Source of the DNA: a virus
DNA length: 64,000 bases
Strand: one strand, 5' to 3'
UHGV virus genome: UHGV-1372779
Shown in pieces: positions 19,830 through 48,984 of this stretch; position 1 is the stretch's first letter, and each line of letters begins with the position of its first letter. Both the position numbers and the translations under genes were made by a program. The notes under the pieces are model-generated. The model made no database searches and had not been told where the DNA came from. It saw only the letters and a program-made list of their open reading frames with translations.

Positions 19830-20635
19830 TTACATCCTCCAGTTTTTATTTTATTATTAAATTTACTTAGAGTTTTAGTACAGAATGTATTACAAGTACT
19901 TATCCTTTCTAGCAATCTCTGTGCCTCAAAGAAATTACATTGAGAGATTAATCTTCTTATAAGCTCCAAAGCCATCCATACTATATCTCTATTTCTATAT
20001 ATATTATTTAAATCATTATCTTTATATAAACAGGCTTCAAATAAATTATTATATAATATAAATTTAATCATATCCTCATAACATTTTTCTAGTTTTCCTA
20101 TTAAGAACAATTGTTCTTCAATTCCTACTAGATTTATATTATTTAAATGTTCTTTTATATAATATATATCAATTTTATGGGCTGTATAAATTCCAGATAC
20201 TATATCTAATTGAAGATACTCCTGTGAATCTGTATCATATACTATATATGATCCATCAAATAGAACTTCTTCACTTCTAGCTGCACCTGCCACAGTTTCT
20301 GCAACAAAGTTTTTCATATAATTTAAAGTAGGAAGAACTAAATGGTCAACTGTAAACCATCCATCTACTGTAGATTTATATTCTAACTTATAAGCTTCAT
20401 ATCTAGCATCTGATCCAACCACATATTTAAATCCTGTAAGTTTATTATCTGATAATTTATTATAATTTACTAAATCTAAAAATATTACATCTGATGTTCT
20501 ATAATACTCTGAAGACACCCCAGACTGTTCTGGCATAAATTTTAAATACCCTATACCTGTTGTATCTTTTAAAGTAAACCCAGTAGTTCCATTTTCAGAA
20601 AAGGTTGCTTTTAAGTTTATATTTACGTTTCTCAT
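19823..20635 (-). CDS. Hypothetical structural protein (270 aa)
   Basis: ORF between the portal and fibre genes. Confidence 0.45.
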   Translation of the reverse strand: MRNVNINLKATFSENGTTGFTLKDTTGIGYLKFMPEQSGVSSEYYRTSDVIFLDLVNYNKLSDNKLTGFKYVVGSDARYEAYKLEYKSTVDGWFTVDHLVLPTLNYMKNFVAETVAGAARSEEVLFDGSYIVYDTDSQEYLQLDIVSGIYTAHKIDIYYIKEHLNNINLVGIEEQLFLIGKLEKCYEDMIKFILYNNLFEACLYKDNDLNNIYRNRDIVWMALELIRRLISQCNFFEAQRLLERISTCNTFCTKTLSKFNNKIKTGGCNC

Positions 20636-22851
20636 TAGTATTTAACTTCATTATTATGAGGATTATTATCAAACATCTGTGCTAATTCAAGATCAACCTT
20701 TTTATTGTCAACCTCAATCTTACTCTTATTAAATTCATCTTGTAATTTAACTTTAGCCCATTCAATTTTATTTTTCTCTGAATCATCCTGAGCTTGTTGT
20801 AATTGTTGCTGAGCTTGTTGTAATTGTTGTTGCATTTGTTGAAGTTGCTGTTGAAGCTCTTTAATAACTTGATCAGATTGTTCAAGATTTTGTTGCATTT
20901 GTTGTATCTGTCCAGCTTCTTCTTTTCTTCTCTTAATAGCTTCAAGACTTTTTTGTTTATAATCGGTAAGACTTTTACATCCAACTGTTGATAAAACTAC
21001 TTCTGCATCAACTTGTCCAGCTTTAACTAATTCAAGATTTAATTCTCTAATACTTTCCATATCTCTAACAGCCTCTTGTCCATCTGCTATATGTATATCA
21101 AAGTCTGTAAGAGTATAATATTCTGGTAGAGCAGTAAAGATTTTTTGTCCTTTATCTCCTAATATAATAGCTCCAGTCAATCCATCCTTGTAAACTATTT
21201 TCCCTAAATTTAATGCATCTAACATTAGCTCTTTTAATATTAGATTCATATTAGCAAAATAAGACTTAGTTATTATAAAGGACTGTTCCATACCTACTTT
21301 AACATTGTGAACAGCATCTTTTTGCTCTATTCCCCCAATCATTTCTCTAAATACTCCTGTAATACTAGATGCTGAAAGTTCTACTCTCTCTAATGATATA
21401 TCAATGGCTTGAATTGCATTAAGAGGAACTGTATCATCATATCCATTATATATTGTATTAACAGGTGCAACTCCAGGTTCTATTTGAGAAAAATCTAATG
21501 GTGCGAATCCTTGTTTTTTATATCCTACGAATTTAAGTAATCTCATAGTCTCATCTTCGTCTAGCCAAGTTGGAATTTTACTTACATCAATGTATCCTCC
21601 TTTAGATCCTGAATTGGCTATAAGATTTTCTCTATGGAAATGTAAAATATTATACATATCTTGAAGATCAGCAGTAGCTAAGACTAATGAAAATGGTTGA
21701 TTTTGTCTAGTAGTCATAAATACTCCATTGATTGATAAAGTACAATGTTTCTTATTATCTACTGATCTAATAACATTTATATCTTTCTTTCTTATGATAT
21801 AAATATCTTCTCCAATTTTGGCATCAGAATATCTATGTTCTACACCATGTTCATCAGTATCTATATATTCAATCTCATGAACTACTATATCTCTTCTTGA
21901 TGCTGTATATATAGAATAATTTCCATCCCAAGTAGGAGATACTTCTAATCCTCCTAAAACTCCAGTACCTAATTCTGTGTTATTATCAGTTACAGCACTT
22001 ACTGGACCAGTAGATCTAATTACATAAACTTGTCCATCTTGACTTCCATGTCTAATTAATCCTTCTTCAAGTTTTTTCCTAGACTCATCGTCTAATTCTT
22101 TATGATATTTGTGAAGGATTTGTTCTGGAGTCATGTAATATCTACATACTGCTCTAGGTGAATCTTTTAAATAATAACTATTAGGATTTCTTTCAATAAA
22201 AGTATTTATAGGATTTAATGTTTCTAATTCTATATTATTTCCACTTTCACTAGGATACTCTTTATAATAAGCTGTACCTGTTATCAATAAGTCTGTAAAT
22301 AAGATTCTAGATTTAGTTCTTAAATCTATATTTCTAGATTGAGATAAATATGTAATAAGATTCTGAGCAGTTATTTCATACTCTGAAATGAAGTTCTTAT
22401 TTAAATCATTAACTAAATTATTTAAATATTCCTCTGTTAAAGGGTCAGTGGGAGGAGTTCCTTGAAGTCCAAATTTAGTTAATATTTGATTTTGAAGATC
22501 TTTGATATATATGTCTCTTATTTGGGAATCTATATATAATTGTTTTTCTCTAAATATATTAGATAATGTATTAGAATCTTTACAAGATATTTGAATATTT
22601 AAAGGTAAATCTAAAAAGTGTCCCACCAATGCATCTACATGTTTTTTAATTAATGGAATAAATTTAATTTGTGTGGGAGTTCCTATTCCATAATTTTCTT
22701 CTAGATGTTTATATTGATCTAAGTCCATTTTACCATGATAATAATTATAGGCTTTCTTTAAAGCTATCTTATCATAAACAAGATCCGAGATTGTATGATT
22801 TATTTTCTGAATTCTCTTGTCCCGCTCTTCTGTTTCTTTTTTTGTAGTCAT
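20635..22851 (-). CDS. Portal protein (738 aa)
   Basis: Size and position next to the terminase. C-terminal QQLQQ coiled coil. No capsid or terminase motifs. The call rests on synteny and size. Confidence 0.55.
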   Translation of the reverse strand: MTTKKETEERDKRIQKINHTISDLVYDKIALKKAYNYYHGKMDLDQYKHLEENYGIGTPTQIKFIPLIKKHVDALVGHFLDLPLNIQISCKDSNTLSNIFREKQLYIDSQIRDIYIKDLQNQILTKFGLQGTPPTDPLTEEYLNNLVNDLNKNFISEYEITAQNLITYLSQSRNIDLRTKSRILFTDLLITGTAYYKEYPSESGNNIELETLNPINTFIERNPNSYYLKDSPRAVCRYYMTPEQILHKYHKELDDESRKKLEEGLIRHGSQDGQVYVIRSTGPVSAVTDNNTELGTGVLGGLEVSPTWDGNYSIYTASRRDIVVHEIEYIDTDEHGVEHRYSDAKIGEDIYIIRKKDINVIRSVDNKKHCTLSINGVFMTTRQNQPFSLVLATADLQDMYNILHFHRENLIANSGSKGGYIDVSKIPTWLDEDETMRLLKFVGYKKQGFAPLDFSQIEPGVAPVNTIYNGYDDTVPLNAIQAIDISLERVELSASSITGVFREMIGGIEQKDAVHNVKVGMEQSFIITKSYFANMNLILKELMLDALNLGKIVYKDGLTGAIILGDKGQKIFTALPEYYTLTDFDIHIADGQEAVRDMESIRELNLELVKAGQVDAEVVLSTVGCKSLTDYKQKSLEAIKRRKEEAGQIQQMQQNLEQSDQVIKELQQQLQQMQQQLQQAQQQLQQAQDDSEKNKIEWAKVKLQDEFNKSKIEVDNKKVDLELAQMFDNNPHNNEVKY

Positions 22852-23128
22852 TTAAGTCTATTTTTTCTCCTACACTAAATTTAGTTAAATTGAGGTTTCT
22901 ATTTAAGAGATCCTCTCTTACATAGTCTAGAAACTCATCTATTGAAGTACATTGTACATAGATTTTACATGTAGGAGTAAGAAAATCTTTATTCATATAA
23001 AGACTAAGAATAAATCCATCCTCTTTTTCTTCTATCTTCATTTTTCCTACATATATTGCTTCATATACTTCAAGTATTATATCTTCTATTTTGCAAATTA
23101 GCTCTTGCTCTTGCGACTTTGTCATCAT
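22772..23128 (-). CDS. Hypothetical small protein (about 118 aa)
   Basis: ORF bridging the terminase and portal genes. It overlaps both neighbours in other frames and the true start is probably at ATG 23125. Confidence 0.3.
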   Translation of the reverse strand: MMTKSQEQELICKIEDIILEVYEAIYVGKMKIEEKEDGFILSLYMNKDFLTPTCKIYVQCTSIDEFLDYVREDLLNRNLNLTKFSVGEKIDLNDYKKRNRRAGQENSENKSYNLGSCL

Positions 23129-24743
23129 TTATATCATATTGTAAATTAGCTAAATCTTGTAAATCTTGAATTGGATCAGGCTTAACTCCATAGTGTTTAA
23201 TCCCATTATCATCATACCAATATCCAAAAGGTTTCATCTTATTTGCATTCATTTTCTTTGCAACAGCTCCCCATGTTCTCATCTCTTGATCACCTATTTC
23301 ACACATCCCCATCGCAGCAATAATATCGAATTTTCTCTTGTCTTCAAAAGAGTATTTACTTAACTCTTCTAACATAGCTAAATCATCTATTGTAAAGCAA
23401 TATTCCAACACAAAATCAGCTATAAGTTCTAGATAATATTCAATTGTTTGTTTAGATGGGTATACCCCAAACATATCAGTATTAGTTACTTTATTAGTAG
23501 GGTTAACTGAGCTTGGCCGCCTCATTAAAAGACCTTGCTTTTTTCTATCCTTAAAATGGTTTACAATAGCAGTTCTTGAACTTTCAAGTACAGCTTGACA
23601 ACCATAAAATTCTAATAATTTAATTGTTTGATTATATGCTTCTTTAATATTTCTAGGACGATCTTTATATATAGCCACATATTTAGGAGGCTCCAATCCA
23701 AATGTTCTTCTTTTAATTACTAAACAGTAATCAGAAACATCTTTTTGACCAGTCGATTGATCTATACCTTGGTCAATAGAGTCAATTCCTGCTACATACA
23801 AATTCTTAAACAGAGCTCCATTCTCATCATGTCTGGGAAGCTCATATATTCTAACTTTGCCATTAGGAGAAGGTAAAAATTTGAGAATGTCTTGATTTAA
23901 ATCTTTACTATAGGAGTAGTCTACTATTCCAACTTTAGGTTTAATTCCGGAACCATGAACTTTAATATCCGTTATTCTAGCTGCTATAGCTACTGAATCA
24001 AAGATATTATCACCCTGTCTAGAAAGTGCTTCATCTGGGTTGTAACAATATTCAGCACAATATGTAAGATAACCTTCTGGAGATCCAGCTTTGGCATCTC
24101 TTTTCTTATTATAGTACTCAATCGCTTTTTTCTTATTACATACTCCTCTTTTATCTATAATTCCATCTATAATAACTACACTATATGCAGGAATAAAATA
24201 AGATGTAACTACATATTCACCATCTGCCGTGTGATTATGTTTATATGGAAGTATATCATATTCTTTTGGGTTATAAAATAATTCATTTAATCCAGCTACG
24301 GCAGGACCTTCATCACCTCCAGTACCATATCCTATCTTAAATCCTATTCTAGATCCACCCACTATAATAAGAGCATCACCTTGAATCCATTTTTTAATCA
24401 AAACTGGATCAGATCCAACCTCTTCATATAATAACATCTCAGCTCTATCACCTCTAACCTTACTAGGTTTATCAGCAACAATTCCAGTAATCATAGATCC
24501 AAAACCAGACTCATTACCTTCTCTATCTTTCTTAGAGGCTTTTTTCTGAGTAGCTGTATTAACAGCTTGTCTAAGATGTTTAAACCCTCCTTCTGTTTCT
24601 GTATTTAAATAGTCTAATTGTCTCCAACATTTTTCTAATGTCTTAGAAACAAATAGATCTGTGAATGCTGTGTATATAGCTTGTTGTCTTCTCTTAACTG
24701 TATAAAGATTTACACCTAAACAGGCTCCCATTTCTGACCATCC
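23070..24743 (-). CDS. terL: Terminase large subunit, exon 2 (Walker B plus RNaseH-like nuclease domain)
   Basis: RAEMLLYEEVGS is Walker-B-like. YVAGIDSIDQG...DYCLVIKRR matches the start of a terminase nuclease domain. The ORF lacks any Walker A, and its frame is open upstream only to the stop at 24744..24746. Confidence 0.6.
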   Translation of the reverse strand, partial: GWSEMGACLGVNLYTVKRRQQAIYTAFTDLFVSKTLEKCWRQLDYLNTETEGGFKHLRQAVNTATQKKASKKDREGNESGFGSMITGIVADKPSKVRGDRAEMLLYEEVGSDPVLIKKWIQGDALIIVGGSRIGFKIGYGTGGDEGPAVAGLNELFYNPKEYDILPYKHNHTADGEYVVTSYFIPAYSVVIIDGIIDKRGVCNKKKAIEYYNKKRDAKAGSPEGYLTYCAEYCYNPDEALSRQGDNIFDSVAIAARITDIKVHGSGIKPKVGIVDYSYSKDLNQDILKFLPSPNGKVRIYELPRHDENGALFKNLYVAGIDSIDQGIDQSTGQKDVSDYCLVIKRRTFGLEPPKYVAIYKDRPRNIKEAYNQTIKLLEFYGCQAVLESSRTAIVNHFKDRKKQGLLMRRPSSVNPTNKVTNTDMFGVYPSKQTIEYYLELIADFVLEYCFTIDDLAMLEELSKYSFEDKRKFDIIAAMGMCEIGDQEMRTWGAVAKKMNANKMKPFGYWYDDNGIKHYGVKPDPIQDLQDLANLQYDINDDKVARARANLQNRRYNT

Positions 24744-24746
24744 TCA

Positions 24747-25771
24747 TGGTCTTGTTGTCCTATAAGCTTTTTATCCTATAGTTCTGGGAGTTTCCTCCTT
24801 ACTTATTACCGAAATAGAAATAATAAGATATTCTGATTTAATCATCAGACAGTTCAGCGTACATTTTCACCCAAACAATGGGGCCGACACTCTTGGAGAT
24901 ATTATTTCAATCTCTACGCGTTACGGTGGTCAATTAATAATTGACTTACCTCGGTATTAACATAGTAATTAAATTTATTGAACTTTCTACTCATATAAAA
25001 ATTAGAATTATCATATAGTAAATGGAATATTTTAGAAACCTCCTTCTTTGATGATGTACTTATTCTATACATATCATCTCTAGATAAATAATTTAAGTTG
25101 ATTTTAATATTATTTAATCTAAAGAAATCTATTATATCTTCTAATATAGAAGAATATTTAGAACAGATCTCAAACTTAAATCTAAACCTATCTGATTTCC
25201 CTTTTTCAGAAGCAATCCATCCAATAATAGATCCATCTCCATCAAAATACCCTCTAATAAAATGAGGAATGAGATCTTGAGAAATATTAGGAATTTTTAA
25301 TTCTTTATAAGTTTTATTATAACCAAATCCTATATCATTTAGAGAATTTACCAATATGGTGCTATTTATATCAACTCCTTCTTGAGGTCTTCCAATATAG
25401 GTTTTATCTCCTCTTCCTTTAATTTCATAAGAATCAATATGAAACCTTCTACTATTAGGAGAAATATATTTAGATATTAACTCTATAATGTCCCTGTCTT
25501 CTTCACATAATTTAACTCTAAAAGTTTTTCTTTTCTCATCAATAGACCCATCAGCAGCAAAAAATCCTAATAGGTATGCTTGAATTTCAGTTACAATATT
25601 ATTAAAAAATTCATGTCTAACTTCTCTTTTACTTCCATTATTAGTATATAATGGACAAATCTTGTTAAGAATCACTTCTTGGTCATTTACATTCATAATT
25701 TTTATATTTTTAATCGTGTTATTTTTTAATCACCTTAGCCTTCACCGATTTTGCCGGATTTAAAATATACA
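24747..25771 (-). mobile_element. Putative group I intron with LAGLIDADG homing endonuclease, interrupting terL
   Basis: About 1 kb separates two terminase-like ORFs. It contains a LAGLIDADG ORF flanked by GC-enriched, structured, non-coding segments (24747..24913 and 25697..25771). Exon 1 ends in ..FALKSRG (P-loop-like) followed by a stop inside the putative intron. Confidence 0.5.
24914..25696 (-). CDS. LAGLIDADG homing endonuclease (260 aa)
   Basis: Two LAGLIDADG motifs: LLGFFAADGSI and IRGYFDGDGSI. Confidence 0.8.
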   Translation of the reverse strand: MNVNDQEVILNKICPLYTNNGSKREVRHEFFNNIVTEIQAYLLGFFAADGSIDEKRKTFRVKLCEEDRDIIELISKYISPNSRRFHIDSYEIKGRGDKTYIGRPQEGVDINSTILVNSLNDIGFGYNKTYKELKIPNISQDLIPHFIRGYFDGDGSIIGWIASEKGKSDRFRFKFEICSKYSSILEDIIDFFRLNNIKINLNYLSRDDMYRISTSSKKEVSKIFHLLYDNSNFYMSRKFNKFNYYVNTEVSQLLIDHRNA

Positions 25772-26617
25772 TTACTGTATATTGGGACAGGCATTTATCC
25801 CTCTAGACTTTAATGCGAAGACATTTAGTCCTAATTTTTTACAAAGTTCCACATAGTGGAAATATTTATATTGTTCTGCAATAAATGTAGGAAATGAATC
25901 ATTTCTTACAGTTACCTTAGCCTTAGAATCAGATTTAAGAACAGCAGGAGAATCCATTCTATAGAAATTTAAATAGAAGTAATTATCTCCTGTTAAAGTA
26001 TATCCATTATATGTATAACCATATATACATCTTCTTTGTTGCTCTAACCAATATTTAACATAAGAAGGACCATTTATCTCAAATGAACTATACTTGCCAG
26101 TAGCTTCTTTAGTCATAGCAGGCTCTCTAAACCAATCTGGATCAAAATCTAATCCCTGTGTTTCAGTGATTGGTCTATATCCAGTTAATTCATAAGATAA
26201 ATCTGGGTCAAAATATTCTATTGGATCATCTATTCTCACATCCCAATTTGTGAACTTAACATCTTCTCCATTTACATGATATAACTTTCTAAATTCTTCA
26301 TTATCAAAGTTTTCTCTAGTCTGATCTGCAATTTCTAAAGATTGTCTTATGTAATCATTATCGTACAAAACTAAATCTTCTTCTTTTGGATCATCTAATA
26401 AATGCTCTGGAATGTGATAAATAGTTGCTATTTCTTCATCTACTAAATCTTGAGAGTTTATTTTATCTAATAATTCCTGTGTTGTTTCTCTTTTACGATA
26501 AGCTCTTTTAGGCTTAGATTCCTTTTCGAGTTTAGCTTTTTCCCTGGCTTTCTTCTCTTCCTCTTTCTTTCTAAGCTTTTCAGCATTACCTTTAGCCCCA
26601 AAAGTCTTCTTAGCCAT
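25772..26617 (-). CDS. terL: Terminase large subunit, exon 1 (N-terminal region up to Walker A), 3' end approximate
   Basis: Basic N-terminus. Ends ..LNVFALKSRG (KSRG P-loop-like) then reads through into the intron to a stop. Together with exon 2 it gives about 830 aa. Confidence 0.45.
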   Translation of the reverse strand: MAKKTFGAKGNAEKLRKKEEEKKAREKAKLEKESKPKRAYRKRETTQELLDKINSQDLVDEEIATIYHIPEHLLDDPKEEDLVLYDNDYIRQSLEIADQTRENFDNEEFRKLYHVNGEDVKFTNWDVRIDDPIEYFDPDLSYELTGYRPITETQGLDFDPDWFREPAMTKEATGKYSSFEINGPSYVKYWLEQQRRCIYGYTYNGYTLTGDNYFYLNFYRMDSPAVLKSDSKAKVTVRNDSFPTFIAEQYKYFHYVELCKKLGLNVFALKSRGINACPNIQ

Positions 26618-30446: not shown

Positions 30447-31106
30447 ATGGGAATTAAGAAATTTAAAAAGTGTTCTTGTTGTGAAAAAGAGCTCCCAGCT
30501 AATAAAAACTATTTTAAAAGAATAAAAAATAAAGAGACTTCTAAGGAAGAACTAAGTAATGTTTGTAGAGGGTGTGAAAACAAATTACTGTTAGAAGAGA
30601 ATTGGAAGGACGGTAAATTAAAATGTTTTATATGTGGAGAATATTTAGATGAAGATAACTTTTCACATAGTGAGCATTACGAGTATAGAAATCATAGAGA
30701 TAAAAGATGTACAAAATGTAAAACTTTACAAAGTAAATTAGCAAGATCAAAATATTCAGATGATCAGAAGCTGGAGAAGACTCTTAGAAATAGACTAGAT
30801 GGAGCTAAAAGAAGAGCCATAAAGAAAAATATTCCTTTTGATTTAGATTTGGAATTTATAAGAAAACTGTGGGATGAACAACGTGGACTGTGTAAAGTAT
30901 CTAAGCTGCCTATGACATATACTTTAGATAGTGGAAGAACTTTTTCTAATGTAAGCATTGATCAAATAAATCCTTCTTTAGGATATACTAGAGATAATAT
31001 ACAACTTGTATGTATGTCTATAAATCAATTAAAATCAGATTTTGATATGAATACAGTTTTACTAATTTGCTCTAATGTAGTTAAAAATTACGAAAATGTC
31101 AAGTGA
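30447..31106 (+). CDS. Zn-finger plus HNH_3-like (beta-beta-alpha-Me) domain protein (219 aa)
   Basis: Four CxxC pairs at the N-terminus. The C-terminus SIDQINPSLGYTRDNIQLVCMSINQLKSD resembles the HNH_3 motif (hIDgnk.Nn...NLe.v....N). Paralogous C-terminus in ORF 39168..40151. Confidence 0.45.
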   Translation: MGIKKFKKCSCCEKELPANKNYFKRIKNKETSKEELSNVCRGCENKLLLEENWKDGKLKCFICGEYLDEDNFSHSEHYEYRNHRDKRCTKCKTLQSKLARSKYSDDQKLEKTLRNRLDGAKRRAIKKNIPFDLDLEFIRKLWDEQRGLCKVSKLPMTYTLDSGRTFSNVSIDQINPSLGYTRDNIQLVCMSINQLKSDFDMNTVLLICSNVVKNYENVK

Positions 31107-31821
31107 AAAATATGTAAAAGATATTAGTAAATTTCAAATGGGAGGAACTATGAATGGTTTATCTCCTTTACCCATTTGGAGTTTATTTAAATCTAGTAAA
31201 GAAGTTAGGGAAGAACCTAAAAAAGTATCTAAACAACCTCAATTTGAATCTAATAAATCAATCTATGAGGATAAAATTAAATCTAATCCTAAATTTGATA
31301 AGAGAATAAATTGGGATAATATAGATTGGCTACAGCAATTTTTTCATAAAAATCTAGGATATAAAACATCCTTAGGAATATTACCCTCTGTTATTAAAGA
31401 AAGTTTTGGGAATCCTAAAATTAAACAGATAGGTGGAGGGCCTGGATATGGATTATTACAGTGGGAGAAAGGATCTGATAGATATAATAGAATGATGAAG
31501 TATCGCACTGATAGTATTATTCCAGGAGTAGATCCAGAGCTTCAAAGGCAAGCAGAATTTATTATTAACACTACACTTGACTCTCAGCATCCAGATGATT
31601 GGCATCATGGAGGTAAAGGAAGTGGGTTTAATACTGCTGAAGATGCAAGAAAGGCTTTTATTAGTAGAAAAAGTTCTGCTGAAGAAAAAGCTTATGCATT
31701 GTCTGCTGGATATGTAAGACCTAAAGAAGGATTAAATGAAGCTAAGAGAAGAAGTAAAATGACACACTCATTAGATTCTTTATATAATAGTAAGTATTTT
31801 AAAATGTTATCAAATAAGTAA
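31096..31821 (+). CDS. Phage-tail-lysozyme-like peptidoglycan hydrolase (241 aa)
   Basis: GGGPGYGLLQWEKGSDRY...LQRQAEFIINT...YVRPKEG..AKRR resembles the Phage_lysozyme2 pattern (GlaQWtggR...aQl.Fi..E....yerP....R). Confidence 0.5.
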   Translation: MSSEKYVKDISKFQMGGTMNGLSPLPIWSLFKSSKEVREEPKKVSKQPQFESNKSIYEDKIKSNPKFDKRINWDNIDWLQQFFHKNLGYKTSLGILPSVIKESFGNPKIKQIGGGPGYGLLQWEKGSDRYNRMMKYRTDSIIPGVDPELQRQAEFIINTTLDSQHPDDWHHGGKGSGFNTAEDARKAFISRKSSAEEKAYALSAGYVRPKEGLNEAKRRSKMTHSLDSLYNSKYFKMLSNK

Positions 31822-31823
31822 TT

Positions 31824-32018
31824 ATGTTAGGAGGAATAATATTTGTATTCATAGTTTGGTTCGTCCCTATGATTTTATGGTTGATATTCCAAAATCCATT
31901 TAAAAAGAATTCTTCTTGTGAAAGTGGTAAAACTGAGAATAAGTTAGATAAGAAAATATTTTGGGCTGCTTTATCTATTGGTATAGCAATTTTATTAGGA
32001 ATAATTATATTAGCATAA
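31824..32018 (+). CDS. Holin candidate (64 aa, two TM helices)
   Basis: Two hydrophobic helices with a charged loop. Located in the lysis cassette. Confidence 0.4.
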   Translation: MLGGIIFVFIVWFVPMILWLIFQNPFKKNSSCESGKTENKLDKKIFWAALSIGIAILLGIIILA

Positions 32019-32019
32019 A

Positions 32020-32697
32020 ATGTCAGAGTTAGGTAAGAATTATATAGATGTAGAAGTAGGAGACAATGATTATGTCTGTAGAGTAGCCTACGATACTTGG
32101 GAAAAAGGTAGAGGATTAATGAATGAGGAGAATCTGGGAGATAATGAGGGGATGTTATTTATATATGATGAACCTCAAGAAGAGATCTCCTTTTGGATGA
32201 AGGATACTCCTTTAGATTTAGATATTGTATTTATATGTCCATGTAAAAAAGTTATTTCAGTTGGACAAGGAATAGCTAATACCACTGATCTAATAACAGA
32301 GAATAATGTTCAATTTGTACTAGAGGTAAAAGCTGGATCAGGAATAAAAGAAGGAGATGAAGTAGAATTCGATGGGTTAGAAGATTTTATTGAAGATAGA
32401 ATTGAATCATTACCACAAGAAAATGTTGAAAAAGTTCTTGATTCTGAAAGAGAAAAACTCTCTGCTCTTCTTAAAGTATTAGATCCTGAGGGAGAAGTTC
32501 AATTGGTTATAAAAGGAGATGTTAGAATATTCTCTAGAAAGAATACTAAAGTCCTAATTAGACAAGCCAAGAAAGCTGATAAATTAAAAACTGATTCAGC
32601 CTATAAAAGATTAGGAAAATCAATATTTAAATACATGAAAATACAAGATGAGAATGGGGAAGAATATGTAAAACCTAATAAGAAGAATAATGAGTAA
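32020..32697 (+). CDS. DUF192-family protein (225 aa)
   Basis: GRGLMNEENL..GMLFIYDEP..ISFWMKDTPLDLDIVFICPCKKV...VLEVKAGSGIKEGDEV matches the DUF192/COG1430 consensus (GLMgr..l...GMLF.f.....fWMknT.ipLDiiFid..g.V........PC.....vLEv.aG.....i..Gd.V). Confidence 0.65.
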   Translation: MSELGKNYIDVEVGDNDYVCRVAYDTWEKGRGLMNEENLGDNEGMLFIYDEPQEEISFWMKDTPLDLDIVFICPCKKVISVGQGIANTTDLITENNVQFVLEVKAGSGIKEGDEVEFDGLEDFIEDRIESLPQENVEKVLDSEREKLSALLKVLDPEGEVQLVIKGDVRIFSRKNTKVLIRQAKKADKLKTDSAYKRLGKSIFKYMKIQDENGEEYVKPNKKNNE

Positions 32698-33262
32698 AAA
32701 GATAAATCTAATCAATTTAATTCTTGAAGGAGAAGGAGGATATGTAAATGATCCAGATGATTCTGGAGGAAGAACTTATAAAGGAATCTCTGAAAAGAAT
32801 TTCCCTAATTGGGAAGGTTGGAATATAATTAATAAGTATGAACCACTGAAAAGAGGACAAGTGATTAGGGATGAGGATTTAGAGGAAGAAATATATGAAT
32901 TTTATTTAGTTCACTTCTATTCCAAACTAAAAATAGATCAGATTAATAATTTATATATCTCAGCTCATCTATTGGATCATGGAGTTAATGCTGGAATCTC
33001 TAATGGTGTTAAATGTTTACAAAGAGCAGTTAATAAGACTTGTCCAGCTAATTTATCTGTAGATGGTAAAATTGGCCCTAGGACAATTAATGAGGCAAAT
33101 ACCTGTAGTCCCAGAATACTTTTAGATAATTTTATTAAAGAAAGACAAGAATACTATAAATCTATTGTGACCAAGAATCCTAAACAAGAGAAATTTTTGA
33201 AGGGATGGTTAAATAGAATAGATAATGTAAATAAATATATTAACAATTTAAAAGAGAAATAA
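32690..33262 (+). CDS. Endolysin, glycoside hydrolase family 108 (N-acetylmuramidase, 190 aa)
   Basis: EGEGGYVNDPDDSGGRTYKGISE matches the GH108 signature (EGGYvndp.DpGG.TkyGIt). Confidence 0.8.
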   Translation: MSKKINLINLILEGEGGYVNDPDDSGGRTYKGISEKNFPNWEGWNIINKYEPLKRGQVIRDEDLEEEIYEFYLVHFYSKLKIDQINNLYISAHLLDHGVNAGISNGVKCLQRAVNKTCPANLSVDGKIGPRTINEANTCSPRILLDNFIKERQEYYKSIVTKNPKQEKFLKGWLNRIDNVNKYINNLKEK

Positions 33263-33353
33263 TTATGGCTTGTAAAGGTAGTAAAAAATCTGGATCTTCT
33301 AAAGGAAAATCCGGAAAAGGAAGTAAATAATTAATTAATAATTTAAATTAGGT

Positions 33354-33844
33354 ATGGCAATATATGTAGGAAACACATTAGTTGCTGATGTAGGAGGGGG
33401 GGGGTAAACCTCTCTACCTCTACTGCAACTAGATATTTAGTTGGATCGGCTTCTACTACAGGAGATACTGAAAATTTGTATACTAATTCTAATTGTTATA
33501 TGAGTAATAATAATTTATATAGTAATGGTAATAAAGTAGTGACAGAAACTGACTATCTTAAATTAGTAGGGGATCATAGGGCAACTGTTAATGGATATAT
33601 AACATTGGGGAGAATAAAAATTAATTGGGGAACATTATCTATAGGCCCAAATACTAGAGGAAGCACAAATTTTGCTAGTTCTTTTGGTGGAAATCCTTAT
33701 ACGGCAGTTTGTACATGGGATTATGATGCTGTAGGAGGACAAGAAAATTATGCAATTTATCAGTTATCTTCCTCAACAATTTATATTGTTAATGGTGAAG
33801 GAACCACCAGATTATTTAGATATATAGCTATAGGTCCAGCATAA
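33354..33844 (+). CDS. Candidate gene interrupted by G9 homopolymer (leader MAIYVGNTLVADVGGGG, then 122-aa ORF in the +1 frame)
   Basis: The ATG at 33354 reads 17 codons into a G9 tract (33396..33404) and stops. One extra G fuses it in frame to ORF 33476..33844, whose annotated start is TTG. The leader resembles the start of ORF 34492 (MAVYVG..). Confidence 0.4.
33396..33404 (+). repeat. G9 homopolymer tract
   Basis: Nine consecutive G in a roughly 30% GC genome, at the junction between an ATG leader and a +1-frame ORF. Confidence 0.9.
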
Positions 33845-33845
33845 T

Positions 33846-34253
33846 ATGAAAATTAAATACTCTTCATTGATTCCATTTAAAGGATTTTATGCAATAAATC
33901 TTTATGGAACTATGTATATTAGGAAAGAATTTAAAGATAGTCCTTTGAGATTAGATGAGTATGATATAAATCATGAAGAAATTCATTCAGCTCAAGCAAG
34001 GGACTTCTGTAAGATAAACTGGATAGGATATACTATATTCTATATATTTTATTTCTTATTCTGGTTAGTAGAATTAGTAAGACCTCCATATGATGAGGCA
34101 TATCATGATATATGTTTTGAAAAGGAAGCATATATTCATGAAAATAATTTAGATTATTTAAAACAAAGAACTAGGTGGTGTTGGTTAAAAGAAAAGTATT
34201 GGAGAAATTATGAAGAACCTAGGAAAAATAAGACTAAAAAGTATAATCAATAA
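33846..34253 (+). CDS. HExxH-motif small membrane protein (135 aa)
   Basis: NHEEIHSAQ (HExxH) followed by a hydrophobic segment (WIGYTIFYIFYFLFWLV). Confidence 0.4.
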   Translation: MKIKYSSLIPFKGFYAINLYGTMYIRKEFKDSPLRLDEYDINHEEIHSAQARDFCKINWIGYTIFYIFYFLFWLVELVRPPYDEAYHDICFEKEAYIHENNLDYLKQRTRWCWLKEKYWRNYEEPRKNKTKKYNQ

Positions 34254-34264
34254 ATTTAAATGAT

Positions 34265-34483
34265 ATGAATAAAATTAGAGAAATAATTAATAAAATTTTA
34301 TCTACTAAAGTAGGAAAGTTCTTATTTGAATTTACTAACATGGTTGCATTGATATTCTTAACTATTTATATGTTTGCACATGTTGAAATTGTTTTTGGAA
34401 TAATTGCATTATTCTGTGCATTTTCTAATGCTTTAGTATTAGTTGATAAATATTTTATTAAGAATAAAAGTAAAGTAAAGTAA
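34265..34483 (+). CDS. Small membrane protein (72 aa)
   Basis: Two hydrophobic helices. Confidence 0.4.
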   Translation: MNKIREIINKILSTKVGKFLFEFTNMVALIFLTIYMFAHVEIVFGIIALFCAFSNALVLVDKYFIKNKSKVK

Positions 34484-34491
34484 AGTAAAAT

Positions 34492-35361
34492 ATGGCTGTA
34501 TATGTAGGAGCCGATGAGTTATCTAAAATATATGTTGGAAATTCTAATGGAAATAGTATTTATTTAGGAGATAAAAAGGTTTGGCCTAATTATCCTGATT
34601 TAGATCCTATAGTAGCACAGATAACAAAAGATTTAAAAATAGTGCCTATCCATTATTGCAAATTTGATGGAAATATAACACAAACTCCTTTACTTATTGA
34701 TGGAGTTCAAATGAGTCCTATTAACTTTATCAGTACTCCAAACAGTCCTACATATGAAAAAGGTGTTGGAGGGAGGAAAGCACTGAAATGTAGTTATGTT
34801 GATATTTCTTTAGCTCAATTAGCTAAAGCACAACATAGTGTATTCATATCAATGCTAATAAAACAAACTACTTCAAATAGTACTTATTCAGGAGTTTTAG
34901 GAGGAACTATATTTGGATTAAATACTAAAGGATATGGATATGCTTTAGGATGGGGTCCTAGTATACAAAATAATAAAATCTGTGCTGAAAGTTATGCTGG
35001 TGGTGCAGCAGCAACTTCTTATAATACTGTTATGACTGCCAATAAATGGCATCATGTTATGATGGAATTTAGAAGTCCAATAACTGCAACAGGAGATGGA
35101 ACACCAACATCTTTTCTTTCTATAAATGGTTCTGAATTTACTAAAGGTGTTGGAGCAGGTAGTATAGGTAGTCCATTAGATTATAGTGATTTATCTAGTG
35201 AGCAAGGTGATAGTTACATTCATTTGGGTTGTGTATGGCAGAGTGGAAAAAAATACTTTAAAGGACTTATTCAAGATTTTGTATTATGGATAGATAACAA
35301 ACTTACAGATGCTCATGTAGAATTATTAAAAAATTATTATAGAGAACTTGGAGTATATTAA
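34492..35361 (+). CDS. LamG/concanavalin-like domain protein (289 aa)
   Basis: C-terminus ...SYIHLGCVWQSGKKYFKGLIQDFVLWIDNKLTDAHVELL follows the LamG jelly-roll pattern (...G.iddv.iwn.aLs..ei). Confidence 0.5.
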   Translation: MAVYVGADELSKIYVGNSNGNSIYLGDKKVWPNYPDLDPIVAQITKDLKIVPIHYCKFDGNITQTPLLIDGVQMSPINFISTPNSPTYEKGVGGRKALKCSYVDISLAQLAKAQHSVFISMLIKQTTSNSTYSGVLGGTIFGLNTKGYGYALGWGPSIQNNKICAESYAGGAAATSYNTVMTANKWHHVMMEFRSPITATGDGTPTSFLSINGSEFTKGVGAGSIGSPLDYSDLSSEQGDSYIHLGCVWQSGKKYFKGLIQDFVLWIDNKLTDAHVELLKNYYRELGVY

Positions 35362-35364
35362 AAT

Positions 35365-35402
35365 AAAAAAGGACTAATCAATTAAGATTAGTCCTTTTTT
35401 GT
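35365..35402. terminator. Bidirectional intrinsic terminator between convergent genes
   Basis: A-run, then ggactaatc-aattaa-gattagtcc, then T6. Confidence 0.65.
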
Positions 35403-35617
35403 TATACTTTTATTTCATTTATTAGATTAGTAGAACAATAAACTTTTCCATTTTTCCACCAATCATTCCAATTGCCCGAGCCAGTATTCCAAGGAGTGCT
35501 AGTTATAGTGTAGGGTCGACTATTTTTTATATTTATTTGAATATCTATATCTAAATCTTTTATATTACTTAGCTTTTCTAAAGCTTCAGCAATTTCTTTC
35601 AATTCACTTATTCCCAT
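35402..35617 (-). CDS. Hypothetical protein (71 aa)
   Basis: Small ORF convergent with the LamG gene and sharing the terminator at 35365..35402. Confidence 0.35.
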   Translation of the reverse strand: MGISELKEIAEALEKLSNIKDLDIDIQINIKNSRPYTITSTPWNTGSGNWNDWWKNGKVYCSTNLINEIKV

Positions 35618-35619
35618 AT

Positions 35620-36594
35620 TTAATCATTTAATAATTCAAAAGCATTTACAGTATCAACAGTTTTAATTCCCATAGATTCTAATAATTCTAAAAATCCAGT
35701 GATAACTGGGTTGTCATTATATAAATCTTTAGCCTCTTCTATTGTTAATTTATTTCTTGATAATTCCTTTTCAGATTTACCAATCTTAGCATATTCTGGA
35801 ATCTTATCTAATTTCTCCTCAGGATCATTAGTCGATGTAGAAGTATAAGTATCTTCTACTTTATTTCCTTCTTTCTTTCCAACATATGCCTCAAGTTCCC
35901 ATCTAGCATAATCTTCACAGAATTTTCTATAGTTTTCATCAAGTCTATCAAGCTCAATTCTTTCATATTGCTCAGCTAACTTTTTCCATTGATTATAATT
36001 ATGTATTGCTAGAGCCTTAGCTTGATTTAATTGATCCTTTAATCTAACTATCTCTTCCTCTGCATTTTTCTTATATGTGTCATTTTCAATATAATCACTT
36101 TGCCATTTTACAGTTTCTTCAAGTTGAGATATTTGCTCTTTTGATTCACATAATTTTTCTCCTAAATTGGCAACTCTTTCCCTCTCTATACCAATAGCTT
36201 CTTTCAAATCATCTATAGTATCATCATAGGCCACTTCATTATTTTTATATTCCTCAATCTCACGATGTAATTTTATATTTTCATCATGTAATTCTTCAAT
36301 AGTTTGATATAATCCTTCTTCTTTATTTCTTAATACATAGTTCTCAGAATTAACAGCTTCTAGAAGTTCCTTATTTTCTGATAATTCTTCCTTTAAAGAA
36401 GTTCTTTCAGCTATATAACCACTTACCATCTTTTTTAACTTAGAAATTTCTTGATTCTTAGCCTCAATCAAATCATCCATATTCTTGATAATCTTTAATA
36501 AAGATCCTTCCAATTCACAAAGTTTTCCAACTTCATCATTCATAAAAGAGTCAATCTTTTCGTAAAATTCTTCACTAATTTTTCCCATAATCAT
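35620..36594 (-). CDS. Coiled-coil protein (324 aa)
   Basis: Heptad-rich E/K/L sequence throughout. Confidence 0.5.
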   Translation of the reverse strand: MIMGKISEEFYEKIDSFMNDEVGKLCELEGSLLKIIKNMDDLIEAKNQEISKLKKMVSGYIAERTSLKEELSENKELLEAVNSENYVLRNKEEGLYQTIEELHDENIKLHREIEEYKNNEVAYDDTIDDLKEAIGIERERVANLGEKLCESKEQISQLEETVKWQSDYIENDTYKKNAEEEIVRLKDQLNQAKALAIHNYNQWKKLAEQYERIELDRLDENYRKFCEDYARWELEAYVGKKEGNKVEDTYTSTSTNDPEEKLDKIPEYAKIGKSEKELSRNKLTIEEAKDLYNDNPVITGFLELLESMGIKTVDTVNAFELLND

Positions 36595-39167: not shown

Positions 39168-40151
39168 TTAAAAGTTATTTATATTATTATAAAGATTAGT
39201 AATCATTTCTTTAAATTGATCTATAGTTAAATCAGATTTAGCTTTATTCACCACACTAGAACATATACATACATTTCCTTTTATATACCCTTTATTAGAA
39301 TCAATTCTATCTAAAGAAGGATTGGAATGAAGACTTTCTGAATCTAATTTAATTCCAGAATAATAACATCTCCCCTCCTGTTTATTTAGTAAATCTAAAA
39401 GATATTCCTCATCTAAATTAAACTCTAATTTAGATTTTAATATACCTTCTCTTTTTCTCCTAGTTCTCAAAGATTTTTTACAATTGGTTAAAAGATTTTT
39501 TACTATATTTAATTTTGATCTTTTATTTATACAAGATGTACATATAGATTTACTTTTGCAATTACCAAATTTATTAGGATCTGTTTCTCCACATATTTTG
39601 CACTGAAACTCAGAAGTTTTAATATTAACATCACCAGAATTTAGAGTGTTATCTATTTGAATTTGACCTTCATGATTTATTACTATTCCAAAGTTATTAT
39701 CTTTTAAATTTCTTCTTACAACAGAAGACTTATTTTTAAGTACCTCAAAAACATCCCCCTCTCCGAAGTCTTTTATCTTGTTGTTAATTCTGTATATAAC
39801 ATTTATGTCTAGAGATGGATCTATTTCAACTATCTTCCTAGGAGGAATTTTCTCAAATGAAGGCAGTATTTTTATTAGCCTACATAGTATTTCTTTCATT
39901 TGATAAGTCAATTTATCATCTAGTATAAACTCATAACAGTCCAAAGTCTCATTTAGTTTATACATAGGGTAAAATCCATTTTTATTAATCTTTTCTATTT
40001 TTCCCAATTCCAATAGATTATCTAAAGCCTTTTTAAGATATGTCTGCTTGAATCCATACTGAGATAAAATTTTGTACGATATAGTTGAAATTCCAGATTC
40101 TGAAAAACAATTTAATACTCTCAAAACTACTTCTAAATTTAAATTTTCCAT
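39168..40151 (-). CDS. Winged-helix plus Zn-finger plus HNH_3-like domain protein (327 aa)
   Basis: N-terminal wHTH. CKICGE...CKSKSICTSC zinc finger. C-terminal LDRIDSNKGYIKGNVCICSSVVNKAKSD is paralogous to the C-terminus of ORF 30447..31106. Confidence 0.45.
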   Translation of the reverse strand: MENLNLEVVLRVLNCFSESGISTISYKILSQYGFKQTYLKKALDNLLELGKIEKINKNGFYPMYKLNETLDCYEFILDDKLTYQMKEILCRLIKILPSFEKIPPRKIVEIDPSLDINVIYRINNKIKDFGEGDVFEVLKNKSSVVRRNLKDNNFGIVINHEGQIQIDNTLNSGDVNIKTSEFQCKICGETDPNKFGNCKSKSICTSCINKRSKLNIVKNLLTNCKKSLRTRRKREGILKSKLEFNLDEEYLLDLLNKQEGRCYYSGIKLDSESLHSNPSLDRIDSNKGYIKGNVCICSSVVNKAKSDLTIDQFKEMITNLYNNINNF

Positions 40152-44129: not shown

Positions 44130-44572
44130 ATTTATCCATTTTTATCTGAGATTTCTATTAAGACTTCATCAGGCTTGGAAATATATCTGAAGAAGACTTA
44201 AACCAAGTAAAATAAAAGTTGAAACCTCTTATATCATGGAAGAGCTGTTAGGCTAGAACTAACAGAGTAATTCTGGGGGGGAATATAATTCCGATATGAG
44301 TTAGATAAGGAGAAAATCCTTATCTATTAAAAGGTTATATATTAAAATCCGAAAGGGTTTAAGATATGTATAGGGTTAATATTGTATAAAGGGTCATCTA
44401 GCTAGTGACCCTTTAAAGAAGGGAATAGTTAATTTAAATATTATGAAGAAGATTAGAGATATTTTAGAGAAGCTATTCTTATGGTTTATATTAATCTTAG
44501 TAATAGCTGTTGGGATCTCATACTTATTAGTATGGATAGGGATATTATTTGTCTTGATTAAATATTAAGAGT

Positions 44573-48771: not shown

Positions 48772-48984
48772 GTGACTATTTTTAAATTAAAATCAAAATC
48801 AAAGATTATGGAAACTTATATTAAAATGTATAAACAAAGATATTATGGTTATTACTGTAATATGTGTAAGGATTTAGGAATTAAACCTGTTCCATACTGT
48901 GACTTTGATAAGAATTTATACAAAGAAACAAAACTTTTATTAAAAGATTCAATATTTTGGGCTAGTTCTGGATTTGACAGGTGA
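48772..48984 (+). CDS. Hypothetical protein (70 aa)
   Basis: Small ORF after the tRNA cluster. Confidence 0.3.
   Translation: MTIFKLKSKSKIMETYIKMYKQRYYGYYCNMCKDLGIKPVPYCDFDKNLYKETKLLLKDSIFWASSGFDR

What the first reader, a model, noticed from the sequence alone, without database searches (positions are those of the whole stretch)
33354..33476. G9 homopolymer separates an ATG-initiated leader from its ORF: phase-variable or frameshift-controlled gene
The ATG at 33354 (MAIYVGNTLVADVGGGG) terminates right after a G9 tract. The downstream 122-aa ORF (annotated from a TTG, no ATG of its own) is in the +1 frame, so G10 (or G7) would give a single in-frame gene. The leader resembles the N-terminus of the neighbouring LamG-like protein (MAVYVG...). 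A G9 run in a 30% GC genome is unlikely by chance. It is the classic substrate for slipped-strand phase variation or transcriptional slippage, here in a cassette of surface- or lysis-associated proteins.
Basis: seen in the sequence. Interest (0 to 1): 0.6.

Follow-up and report, generated by a model that had tools for sequence, protein, structure and literature searches.

The report
Hypermutable poly-G switch in phage fibre gene
A run of nine G's near the start of a small tail-fibre-like gene of a large crAss-like gut phage changes length between otherwise identical phage genomes, so it most likely acts as a slippage switch that turns this probable host-binding protein on and off.

Summary
An ATG at 33354 opens a 17-codon leader that ends at a TAA right after a G9 run (33396-33404). 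One extra G fuses it to the downstream frame and gives a 163-aa protein. In 42 related contigs the run sits at the same codon position in every lineage. Its length is G7, G8, G9, G10, G11 or G13, and one allele is interrupted (G5AG4); 20 alleles are in frame and 22 are not. Contigs with 0 mismatches over 4.8 kb of flanks still differ in run length. The run stays pure G although synonymous divergence reaches about 2 and GGG makes up only 10% of glycine codons. Out-of-frame alleles keep an intact downstream frame under purifying selection. The protein is one tail-fibre shaft repeat plus a gp53/pyocin-fibre-like knob. The phage is a distant crAss-like phage with contigs of about 180 kb. The best explanation is a phase-variable contingency locus driven by slipped-strand mispairing. 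This mechanism is known from Campylobacter phage receptor-binding genes, but I found no report of it in crAss-like phages. Heterogeneity within a sample, switching rate, RNA-level slippage and phenotype were not tested.

The parts
33354..33407 (+). Leader reading frame in the window's OFF state: ATG, 17 codons (MAIYVGNTLVADVGGGG), then TAA. Residues 1-13 are the N-terminal motif shared with the LamG and Kelch neighbours. The glycines form a linker encoded by the tract.
33396..33404 (+). G9 homopolymer tract, the switch. G10, G7 and G13 are in frame (ON). G8, G9 and G11 are out of frame (OFF).
33404..33844 (+). Body of the fibre gene in the frame one base back (-1) from the leader frame, running from the GTA codon at 33404 to the stop at 33842-33844. 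It corresponds to residues 18-163 of the fused protein. It is intact and under purifying selection in OFF alleles.
33404..33553 (+). Shaft repeat unit, fused residues 18-67 (..ATRYLVGSASTTGDTENLYTNSNCYMSNNNLYSNGNKVVTE). The same unit occurs in 2-8 copies in proteins of 500-3000 aa, some of them large tail fibres.
33500..33502 (+). Internal in-frame ATG (M50), used by gene callers for the 114-aa product in OFF contigs. Whether it is used in vivo is unknown.
33569..33841 (+). C-terminal knob, fused residues 73-163. It is Gp53-like_C / pyocin-fibre-foot-like and is the probable receptor-binding domain.
33846..34253 (+). Next gene: a 135-aa HExxH membrane protein (phrog_15610). Its start lies 2 nt after the fibre stop, so it may be translationally coupled (inferred).
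34492..35361 (+). LamG-like protein with the same N-terminal motif (MAVYVG...LGDKKVWP). A Kelch propeller with the same N-terminus takes its place in L018 (and lies next to the fibre gene in L044).
35362..35403 (.). Bidirectional terminator-like hairpin that closes the + strand cassette.
32690..33262 (+). GH108 / PG_binding_3 endolysin immediately upstream (context only).

Best explanation
The G run is a hypermutable simple-sequence repeat, a contingency locus, placed 14 codons into a small tail-fibre-like gene of a large crAss-like gut phage.

Slipped-strand mispairing during phage DNA replication adds or removes G's. Lengths of 3n+1 (G7, G10, G13) give a 162-164-aa protein. It consists of a 13-residue N-terminal docking motif, a linker of 2-5 glycines encoded by the tract itself, one fibre shaft repeat and a gp53/pyocin-fibre-like knob. 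Other lengths stop translation after about 17-25 codons. The window (G9) is in the OFF state.

A phage population would therefore hold a mixture of virions with and without this accessory fibre. This would be bet-hedging on adsorption or host range against hosts whose surfaces also vary.

What is shown: the tract, its frame consequences, its conservation as pure G against codon bias, length differences between otherwise identical genomes, intact and selected OFF alleles, and the fibre-like fold.

What is inferred: the slippage mechanism, reversibility within a population, virion location, receptor binding, the fitness role, and any polar effect on the downstream HExxH and LamG genes.
For: 1. 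Tract lengths. Across 42 contigs the lengths are G7 x1, G8 x4, G9 x14, G10 x19, G11 x2, G13 x1 and one interrupted G5AG4. That gives 20 ON and 22 OFF alleles.

2. Clonal contigs differ only at the tract. With 0 mismatches in 4,800 flanking bases: L028 is G9 and L038 is G10; L031 is G11 and L036 is G10; L027, L032 and L034 are G8, G9 and G10. Nine A/T runs of 6-7 nt in the same flanks show one length variant in 23 contigs, while the G tract shows four lengths.

3. ON and OFF forms coexist. Each of five protein clusters (90% identity) holds both full-length forms (154-166 aa) and truncated forms (107-114 aa). My tally of the listed members is about 132 ON against 119 OFF contigs. The window's OFF product is indexed in 45 blocks of the collection and its ON counterpart in 26.

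4. Selection on the tract itself. GGG is 9.7% of glycine codons, yet the tract is pure G in lineages separated by dS 0.2-2.

5. OFF alleles are not decaying. The downstream frame is intact in every OFF allele, and dN/dS is 0.09-0.46 including OFF-OFF pairs.

6. Variants typical of repeat-driven phase-variable genes. In-frame alleles encode 2-5 glycines, and there are interrupted 'locked ON' alleles: GGGGGAGGGG in L035 and GGE in P0142.

7. Fibre identity. The knob domain occurs at the C-termini of 300-1900-aa proteins that pass the Pfam threshold for Gp53-like_C, one of which also carries phage fibre repeats. Foldseek matches R1/R2 pyocin fibres, AP22 gp53 and crAss-like putative tail fibres.

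8. Precedent. Repeat-driven phase variation of a phage receptor-binding protein is known in Campylobacter phages (Sorensen et al. 2021, Cell Rep 35:109214, as described in PMC11868660).
Against: - No read-level data were available, so heterogeneity within one sample and the switching rate are not shown. Assemblies report only a majority or arbitrary length.
- Some clonal contigs also carry 1-nt deletions at non-repeat sites in neighbouring genes (L027, L032, L035). So some indel noise, or real inactivating mutation, exists in these assemblies.
- Several clonal groups share one length (WIN/L023 at G9; L002/L007/L029 at G8). Some of these may be re-assemblies of the same sample, so they are weak evidence either way.
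- The loci were partly collected through ON-length and OFF-length protein queries, so the 20:22 ratio is not an unbiased frequency.
- The window protein itself scores below the Pfam threshold for Gp53-like_C (16.2 against 24.9 bits). The structure model is confident only for the C-terminal domain.
- The gene lies beside lysis genes, not in the main structural block.
- G9, which needs only a -1 shift and is followed directly by a stop codon, is the commonest OFF state. That pattern would also suit a recoding mechanism.
Confidence: 0.75

Rival explanations
1. Programmed recoding. The out-of-frame G9 allele is the normal genotype. The full-length fibre is made from it at a set low level, either by RNA polymerase stuttering on the G run or by -1 ribosomal slippage of tRNA-Gly on G GGG GGG next to the TAA.
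For: G9 is the commonest OFF length (14 of the 42 contigs; 7 of the 10 OFF contigs retrieved, as measured). In most lineages a stop codon directly follows the run in the -1 state. Runs of nine or more identical bases are known slippage substrates for RNA polymerase (established knowledge, mainly for A/T runs). OFF alleles are under purifying selection, which recoding would also explain.
Against: The frame relation is not conserved. Directly in-frame alleles (G7, G10, G13 and the interrupted one) are as common as OFF alleles, and OFF alleles need different shifts (-1 for G9, +1 or -2 for G8 and G11). No stable RNA structure lies downstream of the run (z = +0.48). The 17-aa leader is unlikely to be a functional product in its own right. 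Recoding could still add leakiness on top of the DNA switch.
Confidence: 0.12
2. Sequencing or assembly artefact. The true gene always has G10 and is intact. Other lengths are homopolymer errors of short-read assembly.
For: Long G runs are error-prone. Several contigs have low coverage (about 2x for L008, L010 and L042). Three clonal contigs carry other 1-nt deletions.
Against: About half of some 250 contig observations from many projects and assemblers are OFF. The same OFF length recurs in separate samples (L015-17 from three accessions, all G9; L018 and L019). In-frame G7 and G13 alleles and interrupted alleles exist. Other homopolymers in the flanks are stable. Conservation of a pure G run against codon bias needs explaining whatever the error rate.
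Confidence: 0.07
3. Decaying pseudogene. The window's copy is simply a dead gene hit by a frameshift at a mutation-prone site, with no regulatory meaning.
For: The window allele is out of frame. The gene is an accessory gene found in varied genomic contexts.
Against: All 22 OFF alleles keep 145-148 stop-free codons after the tract. dN/dS is 0.09-0.46 between OFF alleles. The tract is maintained rather than eroded to GGA/GGT codons. Clonal relatives are ON.
Confidence: 0.04

Closest known systems
Hypermutable polyG tracts in receptor-binding protein genes of Campylobacter phages (Fletchervirus/Firehammervirus; Sorensen et al. 2021, Cell Rep 35:109214; summarised in PMC11868660)
   Same: A poly-G run inside a phage gene for a host-recognition protein. 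Length changes switch expression on and off and would create mixed virion populations. The genome is AT-rich, so the G run stands out.
   Different: The phage lineage is unrelated (crAss-like, presumably infecting Bacteroidota). The protein is unrelated: tblastn of the fused protein finds nothing in 50,697 GenBank phage records. Only one such tract was seen in this 64-kb window. There is no experimental evidence here. The tract also encodes a glycine linker of variable length.
Bacterial contingency loci (poly-G/C tracts in surface-structure genes of Campylobacter, Neisseria, Haemophilus)
   Same: A 5'-proximal homopolymer of 7-13 G. Frame switching is reversible in principle. Lengths cluster around G9-G10. 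Interrupted 'locked' alleles occur. OFF alleles stay intact.
   Different: The locus sits in a virus genome replicated by phage-encoded or host machinery of unknown fidelity. The target is a virion protein, not a cell-surface modifier.
Phage contingency loci proposed for T2 agt and T4 rIIA (Gomez, Barrick, Waters; bioRxiv 10.1101/2025.10.21.683753)
   Same: Simple-sequence repeats in phage ORFs that produce frameshift variants, interpreted as bet-hedging.
   Different: Those repeats are mostly short runs (6 or more) in AT-rich coliphages, and that study found such runs under-represented in tail-fibre genes. Here the run is long, against compositional bias, sits in a fibre gene and is conserved across diverged alleles.
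Other phage tropism switches: the DGR of Bordetella phage BPP-1 (Mtd), and the Gin/Cin invertible tail-fibre segments of Mu and P1
   Same: Stochastic diversification of a receptor-binding tail-fibre protein within a phage population.
   Different: The mechanism is different: mutagenic retrohoming, or site-specific inversion that swaps C-termini. This locus is a plain on/off switch by repeat slippage. No reverse transcriptase or invertase is involved.
Programmed -1 frameshift of tail assembly chaperones (lambda G/GT)
   Same: Two overlapping frames in a phage tail-related gene, joined at a slippery run.
   Different: In G/GT the frame relation and slippery site are fixed across homologues and both products function. 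Here in-frame alleles are common and the short product is a 17-aa peptide.

Membership tests
SSR-mediated phase-variable (contingency) locus | Homopolymer or short repeat of mutable length (about 7 or more) inside the ORF or promoter | tested here: met
   G9 at 33396-33404, 14 codons into the ORF
SSR-mediated phase-variable (contingency) locus | Repeat number differs between closely related genomes and changes the reading frame | tested here: met
   G8, G9, G10 and G11 occur among contigs with 0 mismatches in 4.8 kb of flanks. The overall range is G7-G13.
SSR-mediated phase-variable (contingency) locus | The tract is maintained by selection, and OFF alleles stay intact | tested here: met
   The tract is pure G in all lineages despite dS up to about 2 and 9.7% GGG usage. 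OFF alleles are intact with dN/dS 0.09-0.46.
SSR-mediated phase-variable (contingency) locus | High-frequency, reversible switching within a clonal population | not testable with these tools
   This needs raw reads, or plaque-purified phage and fluctuation assays.
Campylobacter-phage-type polyG receptor-binding protein switch | The switched gene encodes a receptor-binding protein | tested here: inconclusive
   The fold and profile resemble tail-fibre knobs. There are no binding or virion data.
Campylobacter-phage-type polyG receptor-binding protein switch | Homology to the Campylobacter phage proteins or genomes | tested here: not met
   tblastn of the fused protein against 50,697 phage records gives no match. 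The terminase places the phage near Crassvirales.
Programmed ribosomal frameshift site | Fixed out-of-frame arrangement and slippery site conserved among homologues | tested here: not met
   About half of the alleles are directly in frame, and OFF alleles fall in both alternative frames.
Programmed ribosomal frameshift site | Downstream stimulatory RNA structure | tested here: not met
   Folding 33405-33500 gives -10.7 kcal/mol, z = +0.48 against shuffles.
Transcriptional slippage site | RNA-level length heterogeneity greater than that of the DNA | not testable with these tools
   This needs paired DNA and RNA sequencing or reporter assays.
Pfam PF21882 Gp53-like_C (tail fibre C-terminal domain) | Score at or above the gathering threshold | tested here: not met
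   The window protein scores 16.2 bits against a cutoff of 24.9. However, family members P0009 and P0017 carry a precomputed PF21882 hit. Profile hits P0022, P0023, P0024, P0034 and P0040 pass the threshold. Foldseek hits 4mtm, the AP22 gp53 structure. It is probably a divergent member.
Crassvirales (crAss-like phages) | Hallmark proteins nearest to those of Crassvirales | tested here: inconclusive
   The large terminase subunit is 26-30% identical to Crassvirales terminases, for example Culoivirus in Suoliviridae, and 45% identical to unclassified gut phage MT835470. The portal matches phrog_6547. No phylogeny was made.

The most novel reading that the evidence does not exclude
A widespread lineage of large (about 180 kb) crAss-like human-gut phages carries a conserved poly-G contingency locus. 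Besides switching a mini tail fibre on and off, the switch may decide which of several accessory binding proteins decorates the virion. The fibre, the LamG protein and the Kelch protein share the N-terminal docking motif MA[IVM]Y.G, so they may compete for one site. Early termination in the OFF state may also lower expression of the downstream HExxH and LamG genes. This would be a phage-side counterpart to the phase-variable capsules of Bacteroidales. Public metagenomes already show natural populations split roughly half ON and half OFF.
Probability: 0.3. Interest if true: 0.75.

Novelty: new member of a known kind. Interest (0 to 1): 0.6.

Why it matters
crAss-like phages are among the most abundant viruses of the human gut. 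They persist for long periods alongside hosts that phase-vary their own surfaces. A repeat-driven on/off switch in a probable receptor-binding fibre would give the phage its own stochastic diversity in adsorption. It could help explain stable coexistence and strain-level host-range differences.

In practical terms, gene callers currently annotate about half of these genes as truncated 107-114-aa proteins. The tract length is a ready marker for tracking phage subpopulations in metagenomes. The mechanism was so far demonstrated experimentally only in Campylobacter phages, so this case suggests it is used more widely.

Tried and rejected
- megablast of 32000-36000 against GenBank phages found only an 89-bp fragment match. 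No close annotated relative was available.
- PHROGs gave no family for the fused protein.
- tblastn of the fused protein against 50,697 phage records gave no match. There is therefore no detectable homology to Campylobacter phage receptor-binding proteins.
- A scan of 185,579 representative bacterial and archaeal genomes found no homologue. This gave no prophage copies and no host clue.
- The Sorensen 2021 paper itself is not in the held library. I relied on how PMC11868660 and PMC10877375 describe and cite it.
- Literature searches for poly-G, homopolymer or phase variation in crAss-like phages found nothing relevant.
- Distant homologues L004-L006 (40% identity, 47% GC) are large multi-repeat tail fibres without any G run. 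They helped identify the shaft repeat but are not part of the switch family.
- The first set of loci could not show hypermutability, because its near-identical pairs shared a tract length. The clonal pairs with different lengths only appeared after fetching contigs for the exact ON and OFF products.
- The promoter scan gave no more sites than shuffled sequence and was not used.
- The structure model has low confidence for residues 1-75, so nothing is claimed about the structure of the N-terminal anchor or shaft.

Full report
**1. The observation**

An ATG at 33354 opens MAIYVGNTLVADVGGGG. The last three glycine codons are a G9 run at 33396-33404, and a TAA follows at 33405-33407. The frame one base back is open from 33389 to the stop at 33842-33844. 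Adding one G joins the two frames into a 163-aa protein.

The run is the only G or C homopolymer of 8 or more in the 64-kb window, which is 30.3% GC; the next longest is a G7 at 44275. Dinucleotide-preserving shuffles give a mean of 0.04 G9 runs per window.

Two details need correcting. The downstream ORF does contain an in-frame ATG, at 33500, which gene callers use to call a 114-aa product. And the downstream frame is reached by a -1 shift (equivalently +2). The statement that G10 or G7 restores the frame is right.

**2. Related sequences**

A search of the protein collection with the fused sequence found full-length proteins of 161-166 aa (99% to 60% identical) and many 114-aa versions that start at M50. 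I then fetched the DNA for 41 related loci from IMG/VR, JGI/ENA metagenomes and Logan assemblies.

Every family member carries a pure G run at the same codon position. This holds for seven diverged lineages, including one with an unrelated N-terminus (L020, MSTRF...) and one in a different genomic context (L015-17).

With the window included, the 42 sequences have these tract lengths:

| Length | Contigs |
|---|---|
| G7 | 1 |
| G8 | 4 |
| G9 | 14 |
| G10 | 19 |
| G11 | 2 |
| G13 | 1 |
| interrupted (GGGGGAGGGG) | 1 |

Twenty alleles are in frame and 22 are not. In L018 and L019 the 3' context differs, so G10 is out of frame there.

**3. Is the tract hypermutable or just polymorphic?**

Among 26 contigs of the window's own allele type, I compared 2.4 kb on each side of the tract. 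Several groups are clonal, with 0 mismatches in 4,800 bases, yet differ in tract length:

- L028 is G9 and L038 is G10; they come from different projects.
- L031 is G11 and L036 is G10; they are two runs of one project.
- L027, L032 and L034 are G8, G9 and G10. L035, which differs from L034 at 3 flanking bases, carries the interrupted tract.

Other clonal groups share a length: the window and L023 are both G9, and L002, L007 and L029 are all G8. Some of these may be re-assemblies of the same sample.

Nine A/T runs of 6-7 nt in the same flanks show one length variant in 23 contigs, whereas the G tract shows four lengths plus an interruption.

Cluster membership shows the same thing on a larger scale. 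Each of five clusters (90% identity) holds both full-length and truncated forms. My tally of the listed members gives about 132 contigs with a full-length product and 119 with a truncated one. The window's exact 114-aa product is indexed in 45 blocks of the collection. P0141, which is identical to the window protein with one G added, is indexed in 26.

**4. Selection**

GGG is only 9.7% of glycine codons in the window's large ORFs. Synonymous divergence between lineages is 0.2 to about 2. Even so, every third position in the tract is G in all lineages. The homopolymer itself is therefore conserved, not merely the glycines.

All OFF alleles keep 145-148 stop-free codons after the tract. dN/dS is 0.09-0.46, including between OFF alleles, so these are not decaying pseudogenes.

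In-frame alleles encode 2, 3, 4 or 5 glycines. The tract thus lies in a linker that tolerates length change. Interrupted alleles (L035; P0142 with GGE) look like locked-ON variants. All of this is the usual anatomy of a repeat-driven phase-variable gene.

**5. What the gene encodes**

A profile search of 1.84 billion representative proteins shows two modules.

- Residues 16-67 match a unit that occurs 2-8 times in proteins of 500-3000 aa. The same unit is repeated in the large fibre proteins of L004-L006.
- Residues 73-161 match the extreme C-terminus of many proteins of 300-1900 aa.

Those longer proteins pass the Pfam thresholds for Gp53-like_C, one of them (P0023) also for Phage_fiber_rpt, and a shaft-repeat match (P0028) carries Peptidase_S74. 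The window protein alone scores below the Gp53-like_C threshold (16.2 against 24.9 bits).

An AlphaFold model is confident only for the C-terminal domain: pLDDT is 70-91 there and the mean is 59.8. Foldseek matches that domain to the R2 and R1 pyocin fibre C-terminal regions (6cl6, 6ct8, 6cl5), to the AP22 gp53 fibre (4mtm), and to putative tail fibres of crAss-like and other phages. One source names a cluster member 'putative tail fiber protein'.

I conclude that this is a minimal tail fibre: an anchor peptide, a glycine linker, one shaft repeat and a knob. Virion location and receptor binding are inferred.

**6. Context**

The window is from a phage. It has a portal (20635-22851) and a large terminase subunit whose closest matches are an unclassified human-gut phage (45% identity) and Crassvirales (26-30%, for example Culoivirus in Suoliviridae). 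It also has 27 tRNA genes. Related contigs are 180-186 kb.

The fibre gene lies in a + strand cassette with these members:

- tail lysozyme, 31096-31821
- small membrane protein
- DUF192 protein
- GH108 endolysin, 32690-33262
- the fibre gene
- 135-aa HExxH membrane protein, 33846-34253
- 72-aa membrane protein
- LamG-like protein, 34492-35361
- terminator-like hairpin, 35362-35403

The LamG protein starts MAVYVG...LGDKKVWP. In L018 a Kelch propeller starting MAIYAG...LGNTKVWP replaces it. The N-terminal motif of the fibre is therefore shared by swappable binding proteins, which suggests a common docking site (inference).

**7. Mechanism and rivals**

The best-supported explanation is slipped-strand mispairing at the DNA level. 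It would switch the fibre on and off and produce mixed virion populations.

- **Programmed recoding is not the main mechanism.** The frame relation is not conserved: half of the alleles are directly in frame, and OFF alleles occupy both other frames. No stable structure follows the run (z = +0.48). Slippage by RNA polymerase or by the ribosome on G9 next to the stop codon could still make OFF alleles leaky. G9 is the commonest OFF state, and this possibility is untested.
- **Pure assembly error is unlikely.** The OFF fraction is too high. The same OFF length recurs in separate accessions (L015-17). G7, G13 and interrupted alleles exist. The tract is conserved against codon bias. As a caveat, three clonal contigs carry other 1-nt deletions at non-repeat sites in the neighbouring HExxH and LamG genes. 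So some indel noise, or real inactivation of cassette genes, does exist.
- **A pseudogene is excluded** by the intact, selected OFF alleles.

**8. Comparison with what is known**

Repeat-driven phase variation of a phage receptor-binding protein was shown for Campylobacter phages (Sorensen et al. 2021, Cell Rep 35:109214; described in PMC11868660; cited in PMC10877375 and PMC12823448). A 2025 preprint proposes contingency loci in T-even and other phages. It reports that runs of 6 or more are under-represented in tail-fibre genes.

The present locus works like the Campylobacter case but is not a member of it. The fused protein has no match in 50,697 phage records, and the phage is crAss-like. 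I found no report of such a switch in crAss-like phages.

It is therefore a new member of a known kind. What is unusual is how strong the natural-population evidence is. Heterogeneity within a sample, switching rate and phenotype all remain to be tested.

Noticed in passing
window 48959-49510 (+): Rfam calls a tmRNA (RF00023) at 49.0 bits, just above the gathering score of 47. It lies inside the phage's 27-tRNA array (44.9-60.1 kb). ARAGORN did not report it. At 552 nt it is long for a tmRNA, so this is a borderline candidate for a phage-encoded tmRNA.
   Followed up: no
window 24741-25796 (- strand genes 23070-24731, 24914-25696, 25772-26617): The large terminase gene is split in the window by an insertion of about 1.06 kb that carries a 260-aa endonuclease ORF (phrog_4645). 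Relative L011 has one uninterrupted 831-aa terminase that matches both halves at 98.6-99.6%. This looks like a mobile intron or homing-endonuclease insertion. Rfam called no group I intron at the gathering threshold.
   Followed up: partly
L027 about 3731, L032 about 3822 (135-aa HExxH gene); L035 about 4689 (LamG gene): Contigs that are otherwise clonal with L034 and L011 carry independent 1-nt deletions at non-repeat sites (CC to C, GG to G, AAA to AA). These frameshift the genes next to the fibre gene. They may be assembly errors or real inactivation of cassette genes. The two hits in the HExxH gene are both in contigs whose fibre gene is OFF.
   Followed up: partly
window 34492-35361; L018 6038-7054; L022 6085-6975; L044 138-1166: The LamG-like protein and a Kelch beta-propeller protein that replaces it in some strains share an N-terminal module (MA[IVM]Y.G ... 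LG..K[VI]WP). Its first part equals the fibre's leader. This suggests a set of swappable binding domains on one common anchor.
   Followed up: partly
L011 15801-15809 (G9 on the - strand): A second G9 run occurs in a 183-kb relative. It lies 10 nt downstream of the stop of a 319-aa ORF that lies at the position of the window's 327-aa endonuclease-like gene (39168-40151), in apparently non-coding sequence. It is absent from the window and from L012 and L013.
   Followed up: no
window 44275-44281: A G7 run, the second-longest G/C run in the window. It lies in a 310-nt stretch without ORFs (44130-44442), just upstream of the tRNA array.
   Followed up: no
window 30447-31106, 39168-40151, 52047-53006: Several HNH / endonuclease VII-like genes are scattered through the window. 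The 219-aa one at 30447-31106 is present in L012-L014 but absent from L011 and L018, as expected for mobile homing endonucleases.
   Followed up: partly
window 33267-33331 (+): A 21-codon ORF rich in Lys, Gly and Ser (MACKGSKKSGSSKGKSGKGSK) lies between the endolysin and the fibre gene. Whether it is expressed is unknown.
   Followed up: no
L015 1-17344: The P0016-type fibre allele (G9, OFF in three samples) sits in a different context of 34% GC. Its neighbours include an ankyrin-repeat protein, a glucosaminidase, RadC, Peptidase_M78, a Mutator-type transposase and an RHS-like protein. The fibre gene with its tract therefore moves between unrelated phage or mobile-element backbones.
   Followed up: no
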